Source: a virus. From it: a DNA stretch of 64,000 nt. The stretch lies in IMG/VR virus record IMGVR_UViG_3300018044_000002, positions 2,682 to 66,681 of that record; one strand, given 5' to 3'. Within the stretch, counting starts at the first letter, position 1. Each line of letters opens with the position of its first letter. This document shows, piece after piece, positions 1 through 62,945 of this stretch. Below the pieces are notes generated by a model. The model saw nothing but the letters and a program-made list of their open reading frames with translations, was not told the DNA's origin and made no database searches. The position numbers were made by a program, and so were the translations under genes.

Positions 1-193
1 GGCGACGCAGGTCGACCGGCTGGTCGGTCGGGCGACGACCAGGGAGGAGCGGCGAGCAAGGGCTGGCTGGGCGGGGTATGTGGAGCGGGAGCGAGCGATT
101 TTGGGGCAGGTTGCAGGGCCAGAAAACACCTAGTAACGTTTACTACTTACTAACCTGTCTTACTAAAGTGCAATGCTATCTCTTGGGAGATTT

Positions 194-12036: not shown

Positions 12037-12173
12037 TGAATTGGCCGTATATTGCTGGATTCTTTGATGGAGAGGGTAACATTCGGATAGTTGCCGAAAG
12101 CAACAGAATAAACCCTCAGATTTCCATGGTGCAGTCTCGTGAGCGTGCTCGACGAGAAGGAGTCATTGCGTGA
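12036..12173 (+). pseudogene. Truncated LAGLIDADG homing endonuclease remnant (45 aa)
   Basis: Translated by hand: MNWPYIAGFFDGEGNIRI...PQISMVQ; AT-rich, too short for a full domain. Confidence 0.7.
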
Positions 12174-15100
12174 TGACTTGCCGCACCAAGTCCTGCCCGA
12201 CCTGCCAGGCCTGTCCGCTGCTCTCCGCCGGGTCGGACTTCTCGCAGCCGGAGGGGACGGGGCGCACCAAGGTTCTAATTGTTGGTGAAGCGAATGGTGA
12301 GATGGAAGCGCGGGACCAGCTCCCCTTCCGGCCGTACGCCCCTAGCGGTGCGATCCTCACACGTACGATACGACGCCTCGGCATGGACCGCGAAGACTTT
12401 GCGATCTCGAACCTGTTAAGGTGCAGGCCTTACAACAACATTCTCGATGGTGCCTCCTACGAGTACGCGGCGGTTGCTGCTTGCGAGCCCAACCTGCTCG
12501 AAGTCCTGCGCCAGTACCGTCCAAAAGTCCTGCTCGCGATGGGTAACCTACCGCTGAAGCACCTGACCGGGTTGGCAGGGGAGAAGCGTGGCGTAGGTCA
12601 CCTGCGCGGATACGTCCTCCGAGCCCTGCCGCAGTTCGAGCAGGCCGCTGGCCGGGGCCACTACTCCGACCCCCTGCTCGTCGTCCCTACCTACCATCCA
12701 GCGTTCCTCCGCCACGGCGCGATCCACCTGACTGGTGTGCTGGCGCGGGACATTGCACGGGCGGTGAACGTGGCGGCCGAACGGGATCAGAAGTTCGTGC
12801 TGGACATGCCGGACCTGACCCTGAACAATGGTTCCTACAAGTACCATCCAGTCGACAACCCTGACCCATGGGACGCTGGTTATGCCGATTGGGAGCAACG
12901 ACGGAAGCAAGAGATACAGTCCGACCTTGCTGCATGGATGACCCGTAACAACCTCCGCTACCAGCTCCACCCGACCCGTCGCGACCTTGACCTGTTCTGC
13001 CGCGACGTCAAGGCTCGGTCGGACGCCTGGCTCGCGCTCTCACCCGACGTACAGGCAGCCAGCTATCTTTGTCTGTCGCACGACCTGGAGACGTTTGAGT
13101 CGGCCTCGCTGGACGAGGACGCGACCGACGGGTTCACTGACACTAGGATTCGCCTGAGCCAGTTCTCGATCGAGCCGAGCCAGGGGGTCGCGCTGCAGTG
13201 GGACCGGGACGGGATCGCGGCGACGAGGTGGCTGCTGAAGCTGCCACTGTCGAAGTGCGGGCAGAACTACACAACCTTCGACTACAAGGTTCTACAGGCC
13301 GTGGGTGAGCGCGACTTTGGCGACCGGGCCTATCTGACCCCTGCTGGGCAAGTTCACGACACCCTAAGCATGTTCCACAAGTTCCAGCCAGACCTGCCCG
13401 CGCATCTCCAGTACGCAGCCTCGTTCGCGGGGTGGATGTTTCCGTGGAAGCACCTGAACGAGAGTTGTTTGGAACTGTACGGAGTGATTGACACGGACGC
13501 GGCGCTGCGAGTTTACCAAACCGTCCGCAAGACCTTGGAAGATCGCAAAATGTGGTGGGATTCAGCCTACCCGTCGCGCCAAGCGGCTGGGTTCGTAGCA
13601 CAGGTCGAGCAATTCCGGCCGATTCTCGCGCGCATGGAGGAGAGAGGGTTTCCGGTTGACGACGAGCGGCGCCGGGGGCTGGACGTGGAATTTACAGCAG
13701 CCGAGAAAGAGGCGCGGGCGGAGTTGGACCGGAGGTTCCCCGACGAGGCCAGAAAGGTCAAGAGTTATAAGACGGTGCCGACGGAGGTTCGAGGGTTGCT
13801 AGAGCAGTGGCATCCACCTACGCTGCCTGCCGAGGATGCGACGAACGAGAAGGGGAAACCGCTAGGCAAGGGAGCGCGGGCGAAGCTGGAACGAGCGGCC
13901 AGAAAAGAGTGTTACGCGGCAGTTACGGTAGACGACTTGGTAAGGTTGCGGCAGCAGGTTTTCCAAGAAGCCTCGACCAAGGACGCCGACGGCGAGGAAG
14001 AGGAAGGCGAGCGGTACTACTACGGAATGCGATCGGTAGGTGAGATTGAAGGCCAGCCTACGCCGCCGGTCTGGTGCCGAGTCTACGAGTTCTCGCCTAA
14101 CTCGTCCAAGCAGCTTATCCGGTACATGGAAGCTCGACGGCACAAGATCCCTACCACCAAGTCAGGCGAGAGTACCACAGGCAAGAAGGAACTGGACCGG
14201 CTGGTTGCCAAGTATAAAGATGATTTCTACACAAAGGTGGTTGAATGCCGCGAGATTGGAAAAATGCGTGGGACTTACATTGACGGGTTCAGGCCGCACG
14301 CCGACGGCAGAGTACATACGACTTTTACGGATCAGACCGCCACCAGCCAGTTGGCCTGCTGCGCGTCATGGACCCCGGTGCGCGCGCAGCGAGGGATGGT
14401 AGAGATAAAAGATGTTCAAGTGGGAGATTTGGTGTGGACACACAAACATCGTTGGCGTCCTGTTTTGGCTACATGGGTACATCCCGCCGAGCCGATGGTT
14501 TCGGTACACTTTGTTAATGGGGAAGTTTTAACTTGCACAACTTCCCATAAAGTGTTACTGTCGTCGCATGTCCATATCAAAGGAGTGGTGCCGAAAGACG
14601 GAAAATGTGGAGAAGGTGCTTCTGCTTTATCGAAGTGTGGAATCACCCACGGCACAAACAATAGCCACAGTCCTAAAAACCCAAATCCACAACGTGATTT
14701 GGATTCTTGCTCACCAAATACCAACAGCCGAGTACAAGGTCTTGCAAGCCCTGCGAAGATCGCGCGCTCGGAGAGGGACGGGGAGCCCATGGTACGGAAA
14801 GAAAGGCTCTTTGCACCCTCGCTGGATTGGAGAGGTGAGCGATGGACGAGGATATTTGACTTGCTTGGTAAATGGGAAGCGGGAGTTTGTGCATCGAGTA
14901 GTGATGGCAGGAGCATTAGGAGTGGAGAGGATTCCAGAAGATCTGGACATACACCACATCGACGGAAATACTGCGAACAACAAGCTGGACAACCTAGCCA
15001 TCGTGACACGAGCTGGGCACAAGGCTATTCACTTACTTCAGCGGCAGGACTCGAAGATGTTGGCATTGCGGAAGTCAACTTTGTGGGAAGCCTTCCAGTC

Positions 15101-16054
15101 TATGACATCACAGTAGAAGAAGACGAAAGCTACGAATCCTGTGGGGTCTTTTCTCACAATTCCAGAAGTCCAAATATAACTAACGTTCCCAAGCACGGTC
15201 GTCTGGCCAAGCCGATCAGGAAAATGTTTCGGGACTCGGTTGGCGGGAAGCTGCTGGTCGAGTGGGACAAGAAGAGTTACCACATCATGACAACTGGCTG
15301 GTGCGCACGCGACAAGCAGTATATGAGAATGGGCAGGCTGGACATGCACTCGTTCGTGACTTGGCATTTTCTAAAGCTGCCCAAAGCCGACCAGTTGTTC
15401 GATCTGCCTGACGAGGAGTTGCGCGCTCAGTTGAAGTGGCTGAAGAGTGATGAGAAGCGCAGACATGTTAGGGATTTTCAGGTTAAACGTGCAGTTCTGG
15501 GCATAGGTTTCGCCATGGGAGTCAACAAGCTCTACGACATGAACCGCGAATATTTCGATTCGCTCGCGCAGGCCAAGAAGCTGAAGGACATGCTAAAAGA
15601 CCTGTTCCCCAAGGTCTTTCGCTGGCAGGACCAGATCAAGGAACAAGCTCACCGGCAGGGCTACCTGATGAACGACTTTGGCGCGATCCGGTGGTTCTAC
15701 GAGGTGATTGCGCCGGACGGCCGGGGCGGGTGGAAGCCGGGGGACCAAGCGGAGGAGGCAGTGGCGTTCCTGCCGGCCAGCCTGGCGTTCGGCGATATGC
15801 GTGAGTTGATGAAGGAAGTAGCGCGGCGGGGACTGGACGAGAAGTGGGAGCAGGTTAATACGGTACACGATTCGCTGGTCTACCTGGTCGAGCCGGGAAG
15901 GTTGGAGGAACATTGCCGGGAGATGCACCCGGTACTGGCCGCGCCGAGCAAGGTCTTGGTGGACCCAGAGCTGGCACCAGGTGGGCTGGTGATTGACGTT
16001 GAGCCGAACGCTGGGGAAGATTGGAGCGAAATGAAGGAGGTATTGTTTGCATGA
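12173..16054 (+). CDS. Family A DNA polymerase with N-terminal family-4 UDG-like domain, 3'-5' exonuclease and intein
   Basis: UDG: CxxCxL, IVGEANG, SNLLRCRP, PTYHPAF; Exo I/II/III: HDLET, QNYTTFD, YGVID; polymerase: GRVHTTF, PNITNVP, VHDSL. Confidence 0.9.
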   Translation: MTCRTKSCPTCQACPLLSAGSDFSQPEGTGRTKVLIVGEANGEMEARDQLPFRPYAPSGAILTRTIRRLGMDREDFAISNLLRCRPYNNILDGASYEYAAVAACEPNLLEVLRQYRPKVLLAMGNLPLKHLTGLAGEKRGVGHLRGYVLRALPQFEQAAGRGHYSDPLLVVPTYHPAFLRHGAIHLTGVLARDIARAVNVAAERDQKFVLDMPDLTLNNGSYKYHPVDNPDPWDAGYADWEQRRKQEIQSDLAAWMTRNNLRYQLHPTRRDLDLFCRDVKARSDAWLALSPDVQAASYLCLSHDLETFESASLDEDATDGFTDTRIRLSQFSIEPSQGVALQWDRDGIAATRWLLKLPLSKCGQNYTTFDYKVLQAVGERDFGDRAYLTPAGQVHDTLSMFHKFQPDLPAHLQYAASFAGWMFPWKHLNESCLELYGVIDTDAALRVYQTVRKTLEDRKMWWDSAYPSRQAAGFVAQVEQFRPILARMEERGFPVDDERRRGLDVEFTAAEKEARAELDRRFPDEARKVKSYKTVPTEVRGLLEQWHPPTLPAEDATNEKGKPLGKGARAKLERAARKECYAAVTVDDLVRLRQQVFQEASTKDADGEEEEGERYYYGMRSVGEIEGQPTPPVWCRVYEFSPNSSKQLIRYMEARRHKIPTTKSGESTTGKKELDRLVAKYKDDFYTKVVECREIGKMRGTYIDGFRPHADGRVHTTFTDQTATSQLACCASWTPVRAQRGMVEIKDVQVGDLVWTHKHRWRPVLATWVHPAEPMVSVHFVNGEVLTCTTSHKVLLSSHVHIKGVVPKDGKCGEGASALSKCGITHGTNNSHSPKNPNPQRDLDSCSPNTNSRVQGLASPAKIARSERDGEPMVRKERLFAPSLDWRGERWTRIFDLLGKWEAGVCASSSDGRSIRSGEDSRRSGHTPHRRKYCEQQAGQPSHRDTSWAQGYSLTSAAGLEDVGIAEVNFVGSLPVYDITVEEDESYESCGVFSHNSRSPNITNVPKHGRLAKPIRKMFRDSVGGKLLVEWDKKSYHIMTTGWCARDKQYMRMGRLDMHSFVTWHFLKLPKADQLFDLPDEELRAQLKWLKSDEKRRHVRDFQVKRAVLGIGFAMGVNKLYDMNREYFDSLAQAKKLKDMLKDLFPKVFRWQDQIKEQAHRQGYLMNDFGAIRWFYEVIAPDGRGGWKPGDQAEEAVAFLPASLAFGDMRELMKEVARRGLDEKWEQVNTVHDSLVYLVEPGRLEEHCREMHPVLAAPSKVLVDPELAPGGLVIDVEPNAGEDWSEMKEVLFA
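14533..14561 (+). promoter_or_regulatory. Internal promoter within intein block B
   Basis: TTGCAC-17-TACTGT with extended TG; ATG 14568 lies 6 nt downstream. Confidence 0.6.
14568..15116 (+). CDS. HNH homing endonuclease nested in the +1 frame inside the intein
   Basis: HPRW..DGRGY..FVHRVVM...DIHHIDGNTANNKLDNL..VTRAGHKAIH. Confidence 0.88.
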   Translation: MSISKEWCRKTENVEKVLLLYRSVESPTAQTIATVLKTQIHNVIWILAHQIPTAEYKVLQALRRSRARRGTGSPWYGKKGSLHPRWIGEVSDGRGYLTCLVNGKREFVHRVVMAGALGVERIPEDLDIHHIDGNTANNKLDNLAIVTRAGHKAIHLLQRQDSKMLALRKSTLWEAFQSMTSQ

Positions 16055-16788
16055 TCCTAGTACCTATAGCTGCGCGATTCTGGTCTAAGGTCAAGATCAT
16101 TTTCAGTGGGGACGCCTGCTGGGAATGGCAAGCTAGGTTAAACGAGGATGGTTATGGGATATTCGGCGTGTCGCACTTTGTTGGGTTGGAAAAACGAGGC
16201 AAGTACGAACTCGCTCACCGAATGGCTTATAGACTTTTACATTGTACGTCCATTGCCGCTGCTCAGCGCGTATTGCACACTTGCGACAACCCTAAGTGTG
16301 TCCGTCCTCAACATCTCTGGCTTGGAACTCAGCGGGAGAATGTTGAGGACGCTGCTAAAAAAGGGAGAATGCGCGCGCCAAGAGGCATGTATTGTTCATT
16401 GGCCAAGCTTACTGACGCTAATGTTTATGCGATCAAGAAACGTTTGGCCGCCGGAGAAGGTCAATCTGCGATCGCTCGCGGCTATGAAGTATCGCCGGCC
16501 ACAATCAATGAAATATACTCAGGCCGGACATGGAGACATATTATAGCCGAATTGCCATTCCCGCCAGCCAAGCTTGGTCGGCCCGGTCCTTGGACTCCAG
16601 AAAAGGAGGCCTATATTTGTGAGTACGCCGGGAAGTTGCCGACCAAAGAGATGGCACGTGTATTGAACGTTGGATGCAATGCGTTGAGAAACAAGGCAAC
16701 GTATATGGGAATTAGTGTAAGAGTTGTTAGTAAGGTTATGGATAGGGGTCGATTGCAGTGTGGGGAGGAATTGGTCCGAGATGCGTGA
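16051..16788 (+). CDS. Free-standing HNH homing endonuclease with C-terminal HTH
   Basis: RFWSKV, CWEW, AHRMAY, VLHTCDNPKCVRPQHL..GTQRENV; ATGA overlap with the polymerase stop. Confidence 0.9.
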   Translation: MILVPIAARFWSKVKIIFSGDACWEWQARLNEDGYGIFGVSHFVGLEKRGKYELAHRMAYRLLHCTSIAAAQRVLHTCDNPKCVRPQHLWLGTQRENVEDAAKKGRMRAPRGMYCSLAKLTDANVYAIKKRLAAGEGQSAIARGYEVSPATINEIYSGRTWRHIIAELPFPPAKLGRPGPWTPEKEAYICEYAGKLPTKEMARVLNVGCNALRNKATYMGISVRVVSKVMDRGRLQCGEELVRDA

Positions 16789-62507: not shown

Positions 62508-62945
62508 CTAGGCCAGCCACCTCCGACCTACTCGCTGCTCCTCTGCCTCGCGCTGCCGCACCGTCGCCTGTCGCTCCCCCGCCCGGACCATCCTTTTACT
62601 CTTGTAAGGCATCACGATCTGCGACCAGGCTCGCCCGGAGGAGAAGTTGTAGATGGCGTCCGGCCACATGATTTTTCTCGCCTCTTCCTCGGTTACGGGC
62701 CACGCTTCCCATTCAACTCCGGTGGTACGGTATCGAGCGCGGAGGGAGGGTCCGGCGGGTTGGATCGTGCGGCCCCGGTCGTCGAGAACGGCTTCGGCAG
62801 ACTCCTGCCAGAACAACCATGTGAAAACGCGGCTGGGGGCTGGATCGAGGCGGAGGGTGTGGGAAGCGGCGGGAGAGGTCGGCTCCAGTTCGGATGCTCG
62901 CTCGGCTGGATGGCCCTTCTGCCCGGTGGTGGGGGACTGGTTCAT
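62508..62945 (-). CDS. KTSC-like domain protein
   Basis: LRARYRTTG.EW..WPV....SSGRAWSQIV. Confidence 0.45.
   Translation of the reverse strand: MNQSPTTGQKGHPAERASELEPTSPAASHTLRLDPAPSRVFTWLFWQESAEAVLDDRGRTIQPAGPSLRARYRTTGVEWEAWPVTEEEARKIMWPDAIYNFSSGRAWSQIVMPYKSKRMVRAGERQATVRQREAEEQRVGRRWLA

What the first reader, a model, noticed from the sequence alone, without database searches (positions are those of the whole stretch)
14357..15160. Dual-coding intein: HNH endonuclease overprinted in the +1 frame, with its own promoter inside intein block B
Seen: the polymerase frame reads through the whole intein with intact splicing motifs, but between blocks B and F it has no recognisable domain. The same DNA in the +1 frame (14568-15116) encodes a complete 182-aa HNH endonuclease. 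Seen: the codons for block B (TCTTSHKVLL) also spell TTGCAC-17-TACTGT with an extended TG, 6 nt before the HNH ATG and with no RBS, matching other leaderless promoters in this genome. Known: intein endonucleases are normally in-frame domains at this same site. Inference: here the intein acts as a self-removing shell for an independently expressed homing gene, uncoupling homing from polymerase expression. Novelty needs a literature check, since out-of-frame endonucleases in phage genes may already be reported.
Basis: partly seen in the sequence, partly recalled or inferred. Interest (0 to 1): 0.92.

Follow-up and report, generated by a model that had tools for sequence, protein, structure and literature searches.

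The report
Polymerase intein with overprinted HNH gene
A self-splicing protein insert (intein) in this uncultivated phage's DNA polymerase gene carries its homing nuclease as a separate gene in a shifted reading frame of the same DNA; the layout is real and shared by dozens of phages, but this kind of intein has already been described.

Summary
The family A polymerase ORF (12170-16054) reads without a stop through a 268-aa class-1 intein (14357-15160). The +1 frame (14568-15116) encodes a 182-aa HNH_3 endonuclease. Given the HNH protein, the polymerase frame stays open by chance with P about 0.001. Independent metagenome assemblies show no indel in the intein.

At least 46 other viral or metagenome contigs carry the same layout at the same polymerase site. 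In all of them the HNH is in +1, never in frame. Selection acts on the splicing lobes in frame 0 and on the HNH in +1. The frame-0 middle is only kept open and is predicted to be disordered.

The promoter claim is only partly supported. The motif is there and is rare, and it recurs in one relative. But 24 of 32 relatives use a Shine-Dalgarno site instead, and this genome is not generally leaderless.

The kind is in print: the dnaX intein, actinophage inteins and the ShiLan domain. This scan has also found it repeatedly on other DNA. It is a new member of a known kind, of moderate interest.

The parts
12170..14356 (+). N-extein of the polymerase: UDG-like domain, exonuclease region and N-terminal part of the family A polymerase. 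It ends ...TATSQLA at the insertion site.
   Evidence: ORF list. Pfam UDG 9e-18 and DNA_pol_A 4.3e-18. The start may be GTG 12170 or ATG 12173, behind AAGGAG.
14357..15160 (+). Class-1 intein, 268 aa, read in the polymerase frame: Cys1 ... His-Asn, followed by Ser+1.
   Evidence: Translation. C1, T61, H64, D250, D256, H267 and N268 are invariant in 9 of 9 aligned family inteins. A profile built from window, L002 and L003 hits the Spl DnaX mini-intein 7cfv at E 1.5e-9, through both ends. The AF2 model matches mini-inteins by Foldseek: MchDnaB-1 at E 2.7e-5, NpuDnaE at TMt 0.74.
14357..14566 (+). Intein N-lobe (blocks A and B, ...LTCTTSHKVLL), constrained in frame 0.
   Evidence: pLDDT 75-94 for residues 1-70. 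Against L087, frame 0 has aa identity 53%, pN 0.35 and pS 0.74.
14533..14561 (+). Promoter-like motif TTGCAC-17-TGnTACTGT, ending 6 nt before the HNH ATG. A candidate promoter for a leaderless transcript; function untested.
   Evidence: Sequence. Not called by the promoter scan. Only 1 of 1435 ATGs in the window has TGnTAnnnT 5-8 nt upstream, and it is this one. L087 has the same geometry with TAGAAT.
14568..15116 (+). HNH homing-endonuclease ORF (182 aa plus stop) in the +1 frame: N-terminal helix-turn-helix-like domain, NUMOD3-like linker, HNH_3 nuclease domain.
   Evidence: HNH_3 6.9e-11. H109, H129, H130, N138, N142, H151 and H155 are invariant in 17 of 17 sequences. AF2 mean pLDDT 86.9. 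I-HmuI 1u3e is the top VIA match: Z 7.9, 76 residues aligned, rmsd 4.4. Residues 1-67 match HTH domains at Z 5-6. pN is below pS in this frame only.
14567..15052 (+). Frame-0 spacer of the intein (about residues 71-232). It is kept open but is otherwise unconstrained and is predicted to be disordered.
   Evidence: pLDDT below 50 for residues 71-160 and 176-232. No Pfam hit. Frame-0 aa identity to relatives is 18-28%, the same as the non-coding third frame at 17-27%, with pN at or above pS in 5 of 7 pairs and essentially equal in the other two.
15053..15160 (+). Intein C-lobe (blocks F and G: VYDITVEEDESY...GVFSHN). The last HNH codons (...SMTSQ stop) overlap block F.
   Evidence: pLDDT 64-90. 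For nt 748-804 of the intein, against L087: aa identity 84%, pN 0.09. The conserved HNH tail '(Y/S)MTS' in 17 sequences is block F read in +1.
15161..16054 (+). C-extein of the polymerase, beginning SRSPNITNVP.
   Evidence: ORF. DNA_pol_A stretch 998-1285. In relatives the same site reads HN|(S/C)xxPNLQ(N/Q)(I/L)P.
14338..14351 (+). Polymorphic patch in the N-extein just 5' of the insertion site. It is the probable homing or recognition region.
   Evidence: A contig of run X3 is identical over 14200-15171 except for six differences here. Together they recode 5 of 7 codons synonymously.

Best explanation
This is a real dual-coding mobile element. A class-1 mini-intein sits in the conserved TGRxS|SxPNLQNxP motif of a phage family A DNA polymerase.

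Between splicing blocks B and F, its coding sequence is overprinted in the +1 frame by a free-standing-type HNH homing-endonuclease gene (HTH, NUMOD3-like linker, HNH_3). The polymerase frame through that stretch only has to stay open. It yields a disordered loop that is removed with the intein when the two HINT lobes splice the polymerase.

The HNH is made as a separate protein from its own start codon. It presumably cuts or nicks intein-less polymerase alleles, so that repair copies the intein and the HNH together (homing).

Shown here:
- both frames are open beyond chance;
- the constraint switches from frame 0 to +1 and back to frame 0;
- the catalytic residues of both proteins are conserved;
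- the layout is shared by a large family.

Inferred: splicing, nuclease activity, homing and the route of expression.

On expression, most relatives have an SD encoded by the intein's G-E/E-E codons in front of the start, which implies internal initiation on the polymerase mRNA. This phage and L087 have lost that segment. They start at an ATG with no SD, right behind an extended -10-like motif. Expression here is therefore either from a leaderless transcript of an internal promoter (about 40%) or by SD-independent internal initiation (about 45%).
For: Both frames open.
- There are 0 stops in frame 0 and 0 in +1 across the overlap, against 12 in the third frame.
- P(frame 0 open, given the HNH protein) is 0.0013 for the window, 0.0015 for L002, 5e-5 for L003 and 3e-4 for L083.

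Not an artefact. Logan contigs of X2, X3 and X4 come from three studies other than that of the possible source, X1.
- Single contigs of X2 and X3 cover the whole intein.
- X4 covers it in three pieces with gaps.
- None shows a substitution or an indel in 14357-15160.

Family.
- 12 loci were inspected by eye.
- 41 of 80 loci found with the intein profile have this HNH inside the intein in +1, and 0 have it in frame.
- The polymerase site is confirmed in 37 of 41 by a pattern and in 3 more by eye.
- 13 further database proteins, 48-59% identical, end in a tail that is block F read in +1.

Selection.
- HNH frame: aa identity 33-51%, pN 0.35-0.49 against pS 0.74-0.87.
- Host frame in the overlap: identity 18-28%, pN at or above pS in 5 of 7 pairs and essentially equal in the other two (0.56/0.57, 0.51/0.54), like the third frame.
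- Lobes in frame 0 against L087: pN 0.35 (N-lobe) and 0.09 (C-lobe).

Folds. The intein ends form a HINT fold and the middle is disordered. The HNH model has pLDDT 86.9 and its top match is I-HmuI.

Foreign origin. The intein has 50.5% GC against 59.7% for the window. Free-standing relatives exist: L084, L085 and 25 of the 26 non-nested loci L095-L120; L119 lies in a 1343-aa open frame.

Start sites.
Against: - No RNA, ribosome or peptide data exist for either product. No RNA run holding the stretch was listed.
- Splicing and cleavage are untested.
- The Pfam intein hits are below their gathering scores. Membership rests on the profile, the fold and the motif evidence.
- The window's HNH lacks the SD that most relatives have, so it might be poorly expressed here.
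- The extein flanks in this phage depart from the family consensus: SQLA for GRLS and PNITN for PNLQN. Polymerase function itself is therefore not certain.
- The family members were found with patterns taken from this family, so the proportions quoted are not prevalence estimates.
Confidence: 0.85

Rival explanations
1. The HNH is expressed, but not from a promoter of its own. Ribosomes start at ATG 14568 on the polymerase mRNA without an SD, and the promoter-like motif is a by-product of the block B codons.
For: - TTGCAC arises from the Thr-Cys-Thr codons and is also present in L002, where the HNH starts about 60 nt later behind AGGAG.
- Each hexamer matches at 3 of 6 positions, and the scan does not call the site.
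- 24 of 32 relatives clearly use internal SD-led starts, so translation from the host-gene mRNA is the family's norm.
- The GTG TTA letters that supply 'TGnTA' encode the conserved Val-Leu of block B.
Against: - An extended -10 5-8 nt before an ATG occurs once among the window's 1435 ATGs. The chance expectation at a given ATG is about 0.003, or about 1.4e-4 with TTG at -35.
- L087, the other SD-less member, keeps the geometry and has TAGAAT.
- Both SD-less members use ATG, the codon that leaderless initiation prefers (recalled).
Confidence: 0.45
2. In this particular phage the HNH is a silent relic. It lost its ribosome-binding segment by deletion and is no longer made, and the intein persists as a functional mini-intein with a long loop.
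For: - There is no SD before the start, unlike most relatives.
- The intein is 268 aa, against 273-291 aa in most relatives. The segment after block B that carries the SD elsewhere is missing.
- Decaying copies exist in the family: L134 is truncated and L182 is split over two frames.
Against: - The ORF is intact, with all invariant HNH residues.
- Against L087, which shares the SD-less layout, the HNH frame still shows pN 0.35 below pS 0.74 with 51% identity. Selection therefore continued after the segment was lost, if that loss is shared.
- The intein is letter-identical wherever the contigs of four metagenome runs cover it.
Confidence: 0.12
3. Artefact: the HNH is really an in-frame endonuclease domain, and two compensating indel errors in the assembly shifted it.
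For: The window is a metagenome-assembled viral contig.
Against: - A shifted false frame would be expected to hold about 5 stops, and it holds none (P about 0.001).
- Contigs assembled independently from X2, X3 and X4 show no indel in the intein.
- All 41 family loci and the 12 have the HNH in +1, and none has it in frame.
Confidence: 0.01
4. The HNH part is reached by +1 ribosomal frameshifting from the polymerase frame and is made as a fusion to the N-extein and the intein N-lobe.
For: The two frames overlap on one mRNA. The +1 frame is open for 12 codons upstream of the ATG.
Against: - A start codon (ATG, GTG or TTG) sits at the same aligned position in 32 of the 37 start contexts examined; the locator failed on the other five rows. 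24 of the 32 are preceded by an SD.
- In relatives the +1 frame is closed only 2-8 codons upstream of the start.
- I did not look for a slippery or shift-prone motif, and none stands out.
Confidence: 0.03

Closest known systems
[quoted passage not shown] First proposed by Gorbalenya 1998, NAR 26:1741, which is not held here and is known to me only through citations)
   Same: - It is a contiguous intein whose splicing lobes are in the host frame, while the endonuclease is a separate overlapping ORF between them.
- Purifying selection acts on the endonuclease frame, and dN/dS is raised in the host frame over the overlap.
- It is interpreted as secondary invasion of a mini-intein.
- The HINT lobes here are also the closest in sequence to a solved DnaX mini-intein: 7cfv, E 1.5e-9.
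   Different: The endonuclease there is of LAGLIDADG type, the host is a bacterial chromosome and the host gene is dnaX. Here it is an HNH_3 enzyme in +1, inside a phage family A polymerase.
Actinobacteriophage non-canonical inteins (Gosselin, Arsenault, Gogarten and co-workers, bioRxiv 10.1101/2025.01.02.630785; I read passages only)
   Same: - They are phage inteins whose homing endonuclease is encoded in a reading frame or strand separate from the splicing domain.
- The in-frame middle has no recognisable structure.
- The proposed origin is invasion by a free-standing endonuclease gene.
- The authors expect the architecture to be under-annotated.
   Different: - Their same-strand out-of-frame case is an endonuclease VII-like gene in frame 3.
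- Their HNH cases are in frame.
- Their polymerase host is Pol III alpha.
- In the passages I read, no out-of-frame HNH in a family A polymerase intein is reported. I could not see the supplements.
[quoted passage not shown]
   Same: An HNH endonuclease is hidden in an alternative frame of an insertion that the host gene reads through without stops. No RBS is seen, and leaderless initiation is proposed. A look-alike appeared in my own loci: L012, a methylase.
   Different: That insertion has no splicing domains and is thought to stay in the protein. Here canonical intein lobes flank the overlap.
I-HmuI-type HNH homing endonucleases of phage introns and free-standing genes (PDB 1u3e)
   Same: The nuclease core matches best: VIA Z 7.9 over residues 75-159, Foldseek probability 0.99, profile E 0.017. 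The build is modular, a nuclease plus DNA-binding modules.
   Different: The domain order differs: here the HTH-like module is N-terminal and the nuclease C-terminal. Sequence identity is about 26-29% over 76 residues. Whether it nicks or cuts is unknown.
Fractured genes and split inteins with a free-standing endonuclease gene between the halves (Dassa et al. 2009, PMC2677866; I read passages only)
   Same: A free-standing endonuclease gene has invaded an intein at the position where endonuclease domains normally sit. Short coding overlaps with the downstream intein part occur.
   Different: There the invasion breaks the host gene into two ORFs and splicing is in trans. Here the host frame was kept open and the intein stays contiguous.

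Membership tests
Intein (HINT superfamily, class 1) | N-terminal nucleophile Cys or Ser at position 1 | tested here: met
   Cys1 at 14357-14359. It is invariant in 9 of 9 family inteins.
Intein (HINT superfamily, class 1) | Block B TxxH | tested here: met
   T61 and H64 (TTSH) are invariant in 9 of 9.
Intein (HINT superfamily, class 1) | Blocks F and G ending in His-Asn, followed by Ser, Thr or Cys as the first C-extein residue | tested here: met
   The sequence reads ...VYDITVEEDESY...GVFSHN|S. D250, D256, H267 and N268 are invariant. Relatives have S or C at +1.
Intein (HINT superfamily, class 1) | Significant match to curated intein or Hint profiles | tested here: inconclusive
   Pfam Hint_2 scores 19.5 bits (cut-off 28.4) and Intein_splicing 18.7 bits (cut-off 35.8), both below gathering. 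A profile of window, L002 and L003 hits the solved Spl DnaX mini-intein at E 1.5e-9 and the Mtu RecA intein at 2.5e-7.
Intein (HINT superfamily, class 1) | HINT fold formed by the N- and C-terminal lobes | tested here: met
   In the AF2 model, residues 1-70 and 233-268 have pLDDT 64-94. Foldseek finds 16 matches at E up to 0.001; the rows listed down to that level are inteins or related HINT domains (a hedgehog autoprocessing domain, a BIL domain). Examples: MchDnaB-1 at 2.7e-5, NpuDnaB at TMt 0.74.
Intein (HINT superfamily, class 1) | Protein splicing activity | not testable with these tools
   It needs expression of the polymerase fragment and detection of the ligated exteins.
HNH_3 (PF13392) / His-Me finger homing endonuclease | Profile match above the curated cut-off | tested here: met
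   42.1 bits against 24.8, E 6.9e-11, residues 107-151.
HNH_3 (PF13392) / His-Me finger homing endonuclease | Conserved His, Asn and His metal-binding and catalytic residues | tested here: met
   H129, H130, N138, N142, H151 and H155 are invariant in 17 of 17 aligned sequences. Which residue plays which role is inferred from the family (recalled).
HNH_3 (PF13392) / His-Me finger homing endonuclease | Beta-beta-alpha nuclease fold | tested here: met
   AF2 pLDDT is 86.9, with strands 97-107 and 126-147 and helix 148-158. I-HmuI is the top match at Z 7.9 (76 residues aligned, rmsd 4.4) and I-PpoI reaches Z 5.0. A Z under 8 is middling by the tool's own note.
HNH_3 (PF13392) / His-Me finger homing endonuclease | Site-specific cleavage of the intein-less allele | not testable with these tools
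   It needs purified protein and a target DNA.
[quoted passage not shown] | The host and intein frame is uninterrupted while a complete endonuclease ORF lies in another frame between blocks B and F | tested here: met
   The same holds in 12 loci inspected and in 41 of 80 loci found with the intein profile.
[quoted passage not shown] | Purifying selection on the endonuclease frame and none on the host frame over the overlap | tested here: met
   pN/pS and identity per frame in 7 pairwise comparisons. dS is saturated, so only proportions are given.
Sigma-70-type promoter giving a leaderless mRNA | -35 and -10 hexamers close to consensus at 16-18 nt spacing | tested here: not met
   Each hexamer matches at 3 of 6 positions. 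The scan, which needs 9 of 12, does not list the site.
Sigma-70-type promoter giving a leaderless mRNA | Extended -10 (TGnTAnnnT) placed so that transcription would start at the A of the ATG | tested here: met
   Sequence. It is unique among the window's 1435 ATGs and is shared with L087.
Sigma-70-type promoter giving a leaderless mRNA | Mapped transcript 5' end at the start codon | not testable with these tools
   No RNA run holding the stretch was listed.

The most novel reading that the evidence does not exclude
The sub-lineage of this phage and L087 lost the intein segment that supplies the HNH gene's Shine-Dalgarno site in the rest of the family. In compensation, block B codons double as an extended -10 promoter that fires a leaderless HNH mRNA from inside the polymerase gene. 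The same about 30 nt would then encode a catalytic splicing motif, a promoter and a transcription and translation start, and homing would be timed independently of polymerase translation.

The clustered synonymous recoding of the five codons next to the insertion site in another metagenome would then mark ongoing conflict over the nuclease's target.
Probability: 0.3. Interest if true: 0.6.

Novelty: new member of a known kind. Interest (0 to 1): 0.4.

Why it matters
This is one of the clearest natural cases of long same-strand dual coding in a phage: about 550 nt with a complete switch of constraint between frames. It also shows how a free-standing homing endonuclease gene can use an intein as a self-removing shelter inside an essential gene.

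The comparative set gathered here has at least 46 contigs, all at one polymerase motif and all with the HNH in +1. This suggests the architecture is common in uncultivated phages and is missed by gene callers, as the 2025 actinophage survey predicted.

In practice, annotation pipelines should look for nested ORFs in apparently 'decaying' inteins. The family also offers matched SD-led and SD-less variants for testing how nested genes are expressed.

It does not open a new category. The principle has been in print since 1998 and was documented again in 2025-2026, and this scan has met it many times.

Tried and rejected
- **Close DNA relatives.** A distant blastn of 14000-15500 against the phage records found none. 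The C-extein alone found no relative in the viral contigs. I therefore have no near-identical intein-less allele, and the homing site could not be defined by comparison.
- **Expression data.** The look-up of sequencing runs listed no RNA holder, so nothing can be said on expression.
- **RNA structure at the start.** Folding 14528-14617 and 14568-14657 gave z-scores of -1.33 and -0.44, which are not informative.
- **Origin of the nested HNHs.** The tree holds 58 distinct sequences, 41 nested and 17 free. Identical sequences and hits covering fewer than 100 profile positions were dropped before the tree. The careful search did not finish, so this is the quick tree. It needs 3 changes of the label, and well-supported branches force only 1. 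A single capture is neither shown nor excluded, and the direction is unknown.
- **TTA Leu codon.** I considered whether the rare TTA inside the -10 argues for selection on the promoter. TTA is 1 of 100 Leu codons in the extein but 3 of 15 in the intein, so it does not.
- **Second HNH gene.** The free-standing HNH gene at 16051-16788 is not a paralogue of the nested one (E 0.77).
- **Literature.** Four searches found no paper on an out-of-frame HNH inside a family A polymerase intein. Gorbalenya 1998 is not held. The supplements of the two Gogarten-group preprints could not be seen and may list such cases. PMC5418858 proved irrelevant.
- **Foldseek on the HNH model.** It gave no match at E up to 0.001. 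The VIA search was used instead.

Full report
**What is there**

The window is 64 kb of a 66.7-kb IMG/VR viral contig. A single ORF, 12170-16054 on the + strand, encodes a 1294-aa protein. It has a UDG-superfamily domain at the N-terminus and a family A DNA polymerase domain at the C-terminus.

Between ...TATSQLA and SRSPNITNVP... lies a 268-aa insert, 14357-15160. It begins with Cys, has TTSH at residues 61-64, and ends ...VYDITVEEDESYESCGVFSHN followed by Ser.

Frame 0 has no stop anywhere in the insert. The +1 frame is open from 14532 to 15113, with an ATG at 14568. The third frame has 14 stops in the insert.

The 182-aa +1 product is an HNH_3 endonuclease: 6.9e-11, above Pfam's cut-off. 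The frame-0 product matches intein models only at its two ends, and below Pfam's cut-offs.

**Is it more than chance or error?**

I kept the HNH protein and permuted its synonymous codons. The polymerase frame then stays open in only 0.12% of 20000 permutations, with 5.4 stops expected. The reverse test gives 0.37%. A frame created by two compensating indel errors would not be expected to be open.

Contigs assembled independently from four public metagenome runs (peat, soil and wetland, four studies, one of them possibly the source) cover the stretch. They show no substitution and no indel inside 14357-15160. The insert has 50.5% G+C against 59.7% for the window, as expected of a mobile element.

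**Relatives**

The HNH protein found two viral contigs (L002, L003) with HNH proteins 48% and 37% identical. In both, the HNH ORF lies in the +1 frame of a UDG-PolA gene, between intein blocks B and F, and the polymerase frame is open.

- A profile of these HNHs found a fourth case in a metagenome contig (L083) and free-standing relatives (L084, L085).
- A 17-sequence profile found eight more nested cases (L087-L094) and 26 that are not nested (L095-L120). Of these, L119 lies in a 1343-aa open frame and may be an in-frame domain.
- A profile of nine inteins retrieved 80 loci. 41 carry this HNH family inside the intein in +1, none carries it in frame, and one (L182) has it split over two frames.
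- All 41 sit at the polymerase motif TGRxS|SxPNLQNxP: 37 by a pattern, 3 by eye, and L160 not verified.
- After removing loci that are the same contig, at least 46 contigs besides the window share the layout.
- The shuffle test repeated on L002, L003 and L083 gives P of 0.0015, 5e-5 and 3e-4.
- Thirteen more database proteins, 48-59% identical and 180-190 aa long, end in '(Y/S)MTS(Q/R)' or 'TSQSKKTKAT'. That tail is block F (YDITVEEDESY) read in +1, so they are very probably nested too.

**Where selection acts**

On codon alignments guided by the HNH protein, the HNH frame shows 33-46% amino-acid identity, with pN 0.42-0.49 well below a saturated pS of 0.75-0.87. The polymerase frame over the same letters shows 18-24% identity, no better than the unused third frame (17-24%). 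Its pN is at or above pS in four of the six pairs, and in the other two they are essentially equal.

The closest pair with equal lengths, window against L087, aligns without gaps over 804 nt:

| Region | Frame | aa identity | pN | pS |
|---|---|---|---|---|
| N-lobe | 0 | 53% | 0.35 | 0.74 |
| Overlap | +1 (HNH) | 51% | 0.35 | 0.74 |
| Overlap | 0 (host) | 28% | 0.47 | 0.38 |
| C-lobe | 0 | 84% | 0.09 | 0.48 |

So the constraint passes from frame 0 to +1 and back.

- Invariant in 9 of 9 inteins: C1, T61, H64, D250, D256, H267 and N268.
- Invariant in 17 of 17 HNH proteins: H109, H129, H130, N138, N142, H151 and H155.

**Structure**

*Intein in frame 0.* AlphaFold2 with the 9-row alignment gives pLDDT 75-94 for residues 1-70 and 64-90 for residues 233-268. 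It gives pLDDT below 50 for residues 71-160 and 176-232. The model matches solved mini-inteins, for example MchDnaB-1 at E 2.7e-5 and NpuDnaE and NpuDnaB at TMt 0.74. By sequence profile, the best solved relative is the Spirulina DnaX mini-intein (E 1.5e-9, both ends).

*The +1 protein.* It folds with mean pLDDT 86.9 into an N-terminal helical domain and a beta-beta-alpha domain. I-HmuI is the top structural match: Z 7.9, 76 residues, rmsd 4.4. Residues 1-67 resemble helix-turn-helix DNA-binding domains at Z 5-6. Foldseek alone gave only weak E-values.

**How it most likely works**

*Shown.*
- The intein has intact class-1 splicing motifs.
- A conserved, selected and well-folding HNH gene lies in +1.
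- The frame-0 spacer is kept open and is otherwise unconstrained.

*Inferred from what is known of inteins and homing endonucleases.*
- The polymerase precursor is translated through the spacer.
- The two HINT lobes associate and splice.
- The separately made HNH cuts or nicks empty polymerase alleles, and repair copies the whole element.

The existence of free-standing relatives, and the absence of any in-frame form, fits invasion of a mini-intein by a free-standing endonuclease gene. The quick tree cannot decide the number or the direction of such events.

**The promoter claim**

The letters are as described. Against the claim:
- Each hexamer matches its consensus at 3 of 6 positions, and the promoter scan does not list the site.
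- TTGCAC comes from the Thr-Cys-Thr codons of block B and is present in L002 too.
- Among 32 distinct family start contexts with a locatable start codon, 24 have a GGAG/GAGG-type core 4-11 nt upstream. It is encoded by the intein's Gly-Glu or Glu-Glu codons after block B (7 of 10).
- Most genes of this phage have clear SD sites. Only one other loose leaderless candidate exists, at 62945 on the - strand. The genome is therefore not 'leaderless'.

For the claim:
- TGnTAnnnT occurs 43 times on both strands of the window. It lies 5-8 nt before an ATG only once in 1435 ATGs, and that ATG is this one. The chance expectation is about 0.003 per ATG, or 1.4e-4 with TTG at -35.
- The window and L087/L088 have the shortest full inteins (268 aa). 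They lack the SD-bearing segment, both start with ATG, and both have TTGCAC-17-TGnTAnnnT-6-ATG. In L087 the -10 is TAGAAT.

I rate the leaderless-promoter reading at about 0.4, SD-independent internal initiation at about 0.45, and a silent relic at about 0.12.

**Comparison with what is known**

- The Synechocystis DnaX intein was proposed in 1998 to have an endonuclease in an alternative ORF (Gorbalenya; cited; paper not held).
- A 2026 preprint documents an out-of-frame LAGLIDADG endonuclease in cyanobacterial dnaX inteins, with frame-specific selection.
[quoted passage not shown] It predicts that such inteins are under-annotated.
- The ShiLan domain is an out-of-frame HNH in a methylase, without an intein.

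None of my four literature searches found an out-of-frame HNH in a family A polymerase intein. I could not see the supplements of these papers.

Within this scan, the same kind has been noted on other DNA many times: 386 notes in at least 321 genomes. They include followed-up polymerase cases (e1-191111, e1-138097, e1-6134863, e1-3437986) and terminase cases. None of them shares sequence with this window.

**Verdict**

The promoter interpretation is open. The claims of genome-wide leaderless promoters and of novelty are not supported. This is a new member of a known, recently described kind, and interest is moderate (0.4).

The part most worth an experiment is the contrast between the SD-less members, with their promoter-like motif, and the SD-led members. 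The oddly recoded flank at the insertion site is also worth testing.

Noticed in passing
window 14338-14351 and 15168: A contig of soil run X3 (depth 44.6) is identical to the window over 14200-15171 except for six differences in the seven codons just 5' of the intein. Together they change 5 of 7 codons synonymously, including a Ser codon-family switch made by a 1-nt loss plus a 1-nt gain. The intein itself is identical. Runs X2, X3 and X4 also share G>A at 15168, which turns the third C-extein residue from Ser to Asn. This may be a short conversion patch, or selection on the nuclease's target.
   Followed up: partly
window 16051-16788 (+): A second, free-standing HNH gene follows the polymerase gene directly. 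It has HNH_3, zf-His_Me_endon and HTH_38, its ATG overlaps the polymerase stop, and it has a strong AAGGAGG site. It is unrelated in sequence to the nested HNH.
   Followed up: partly
L005, L008, L009, L013-L019, L028, L033, L036, L037, L041, L060: 17 of the 80 viral loci found with the HNH query carry a different HNH family in the other shifted frame (+2) inside long ORFs. The 13 whose translations I printed have intein ends. Of the 10 host ORFs scanned, 9 hit intein models and 7 are terminase large subunits. Out-of-frame HNH genes in inteins therefore recur in several host genes and in both frames.
   Followed up: partly
L012:1-1221: An N6/N4 DNA methylase carries an out-of-frame HNH ORF and has no intein hit. 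It resembles the published ShiLan domain.
   Followed up: no
window 14336-14356 and 15161-15190: The extein flanks here read ...TSQLA| and |SRSPNITNVP, where relatives have ...TGR(L/M/F)S| and |SxxPNLQ(N/Q)(I/V)P. Two normally conserved residues differ (Arg to Gln, Gln to Thr). Another first-reader note (e1-6182739) flags unusual invariant residues in this polymerase.
   Followed up: no
L093:2093-5758: The host polymerase ORF shows a further 'DY|CLTGDT...' shortly after the first intein. This is probably a second intein in polymerase motif A.
   Followed up: no
L134, L182, L160: These look like decay or variant stages of the family. L134 has a 220-aa intein with a truncated HNH. L182 has the HNH hit split over two frames. 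L160 has a 335-aa intein with a divergent HNH.
   Followed up: no
window 62945 (- strand): This is the only other start in the window with TTG-16..18-TGnTAnnnT upstream and no SD. It begins a 145-aa ORF that overlaps a + strand open frame.
   Followed up: no
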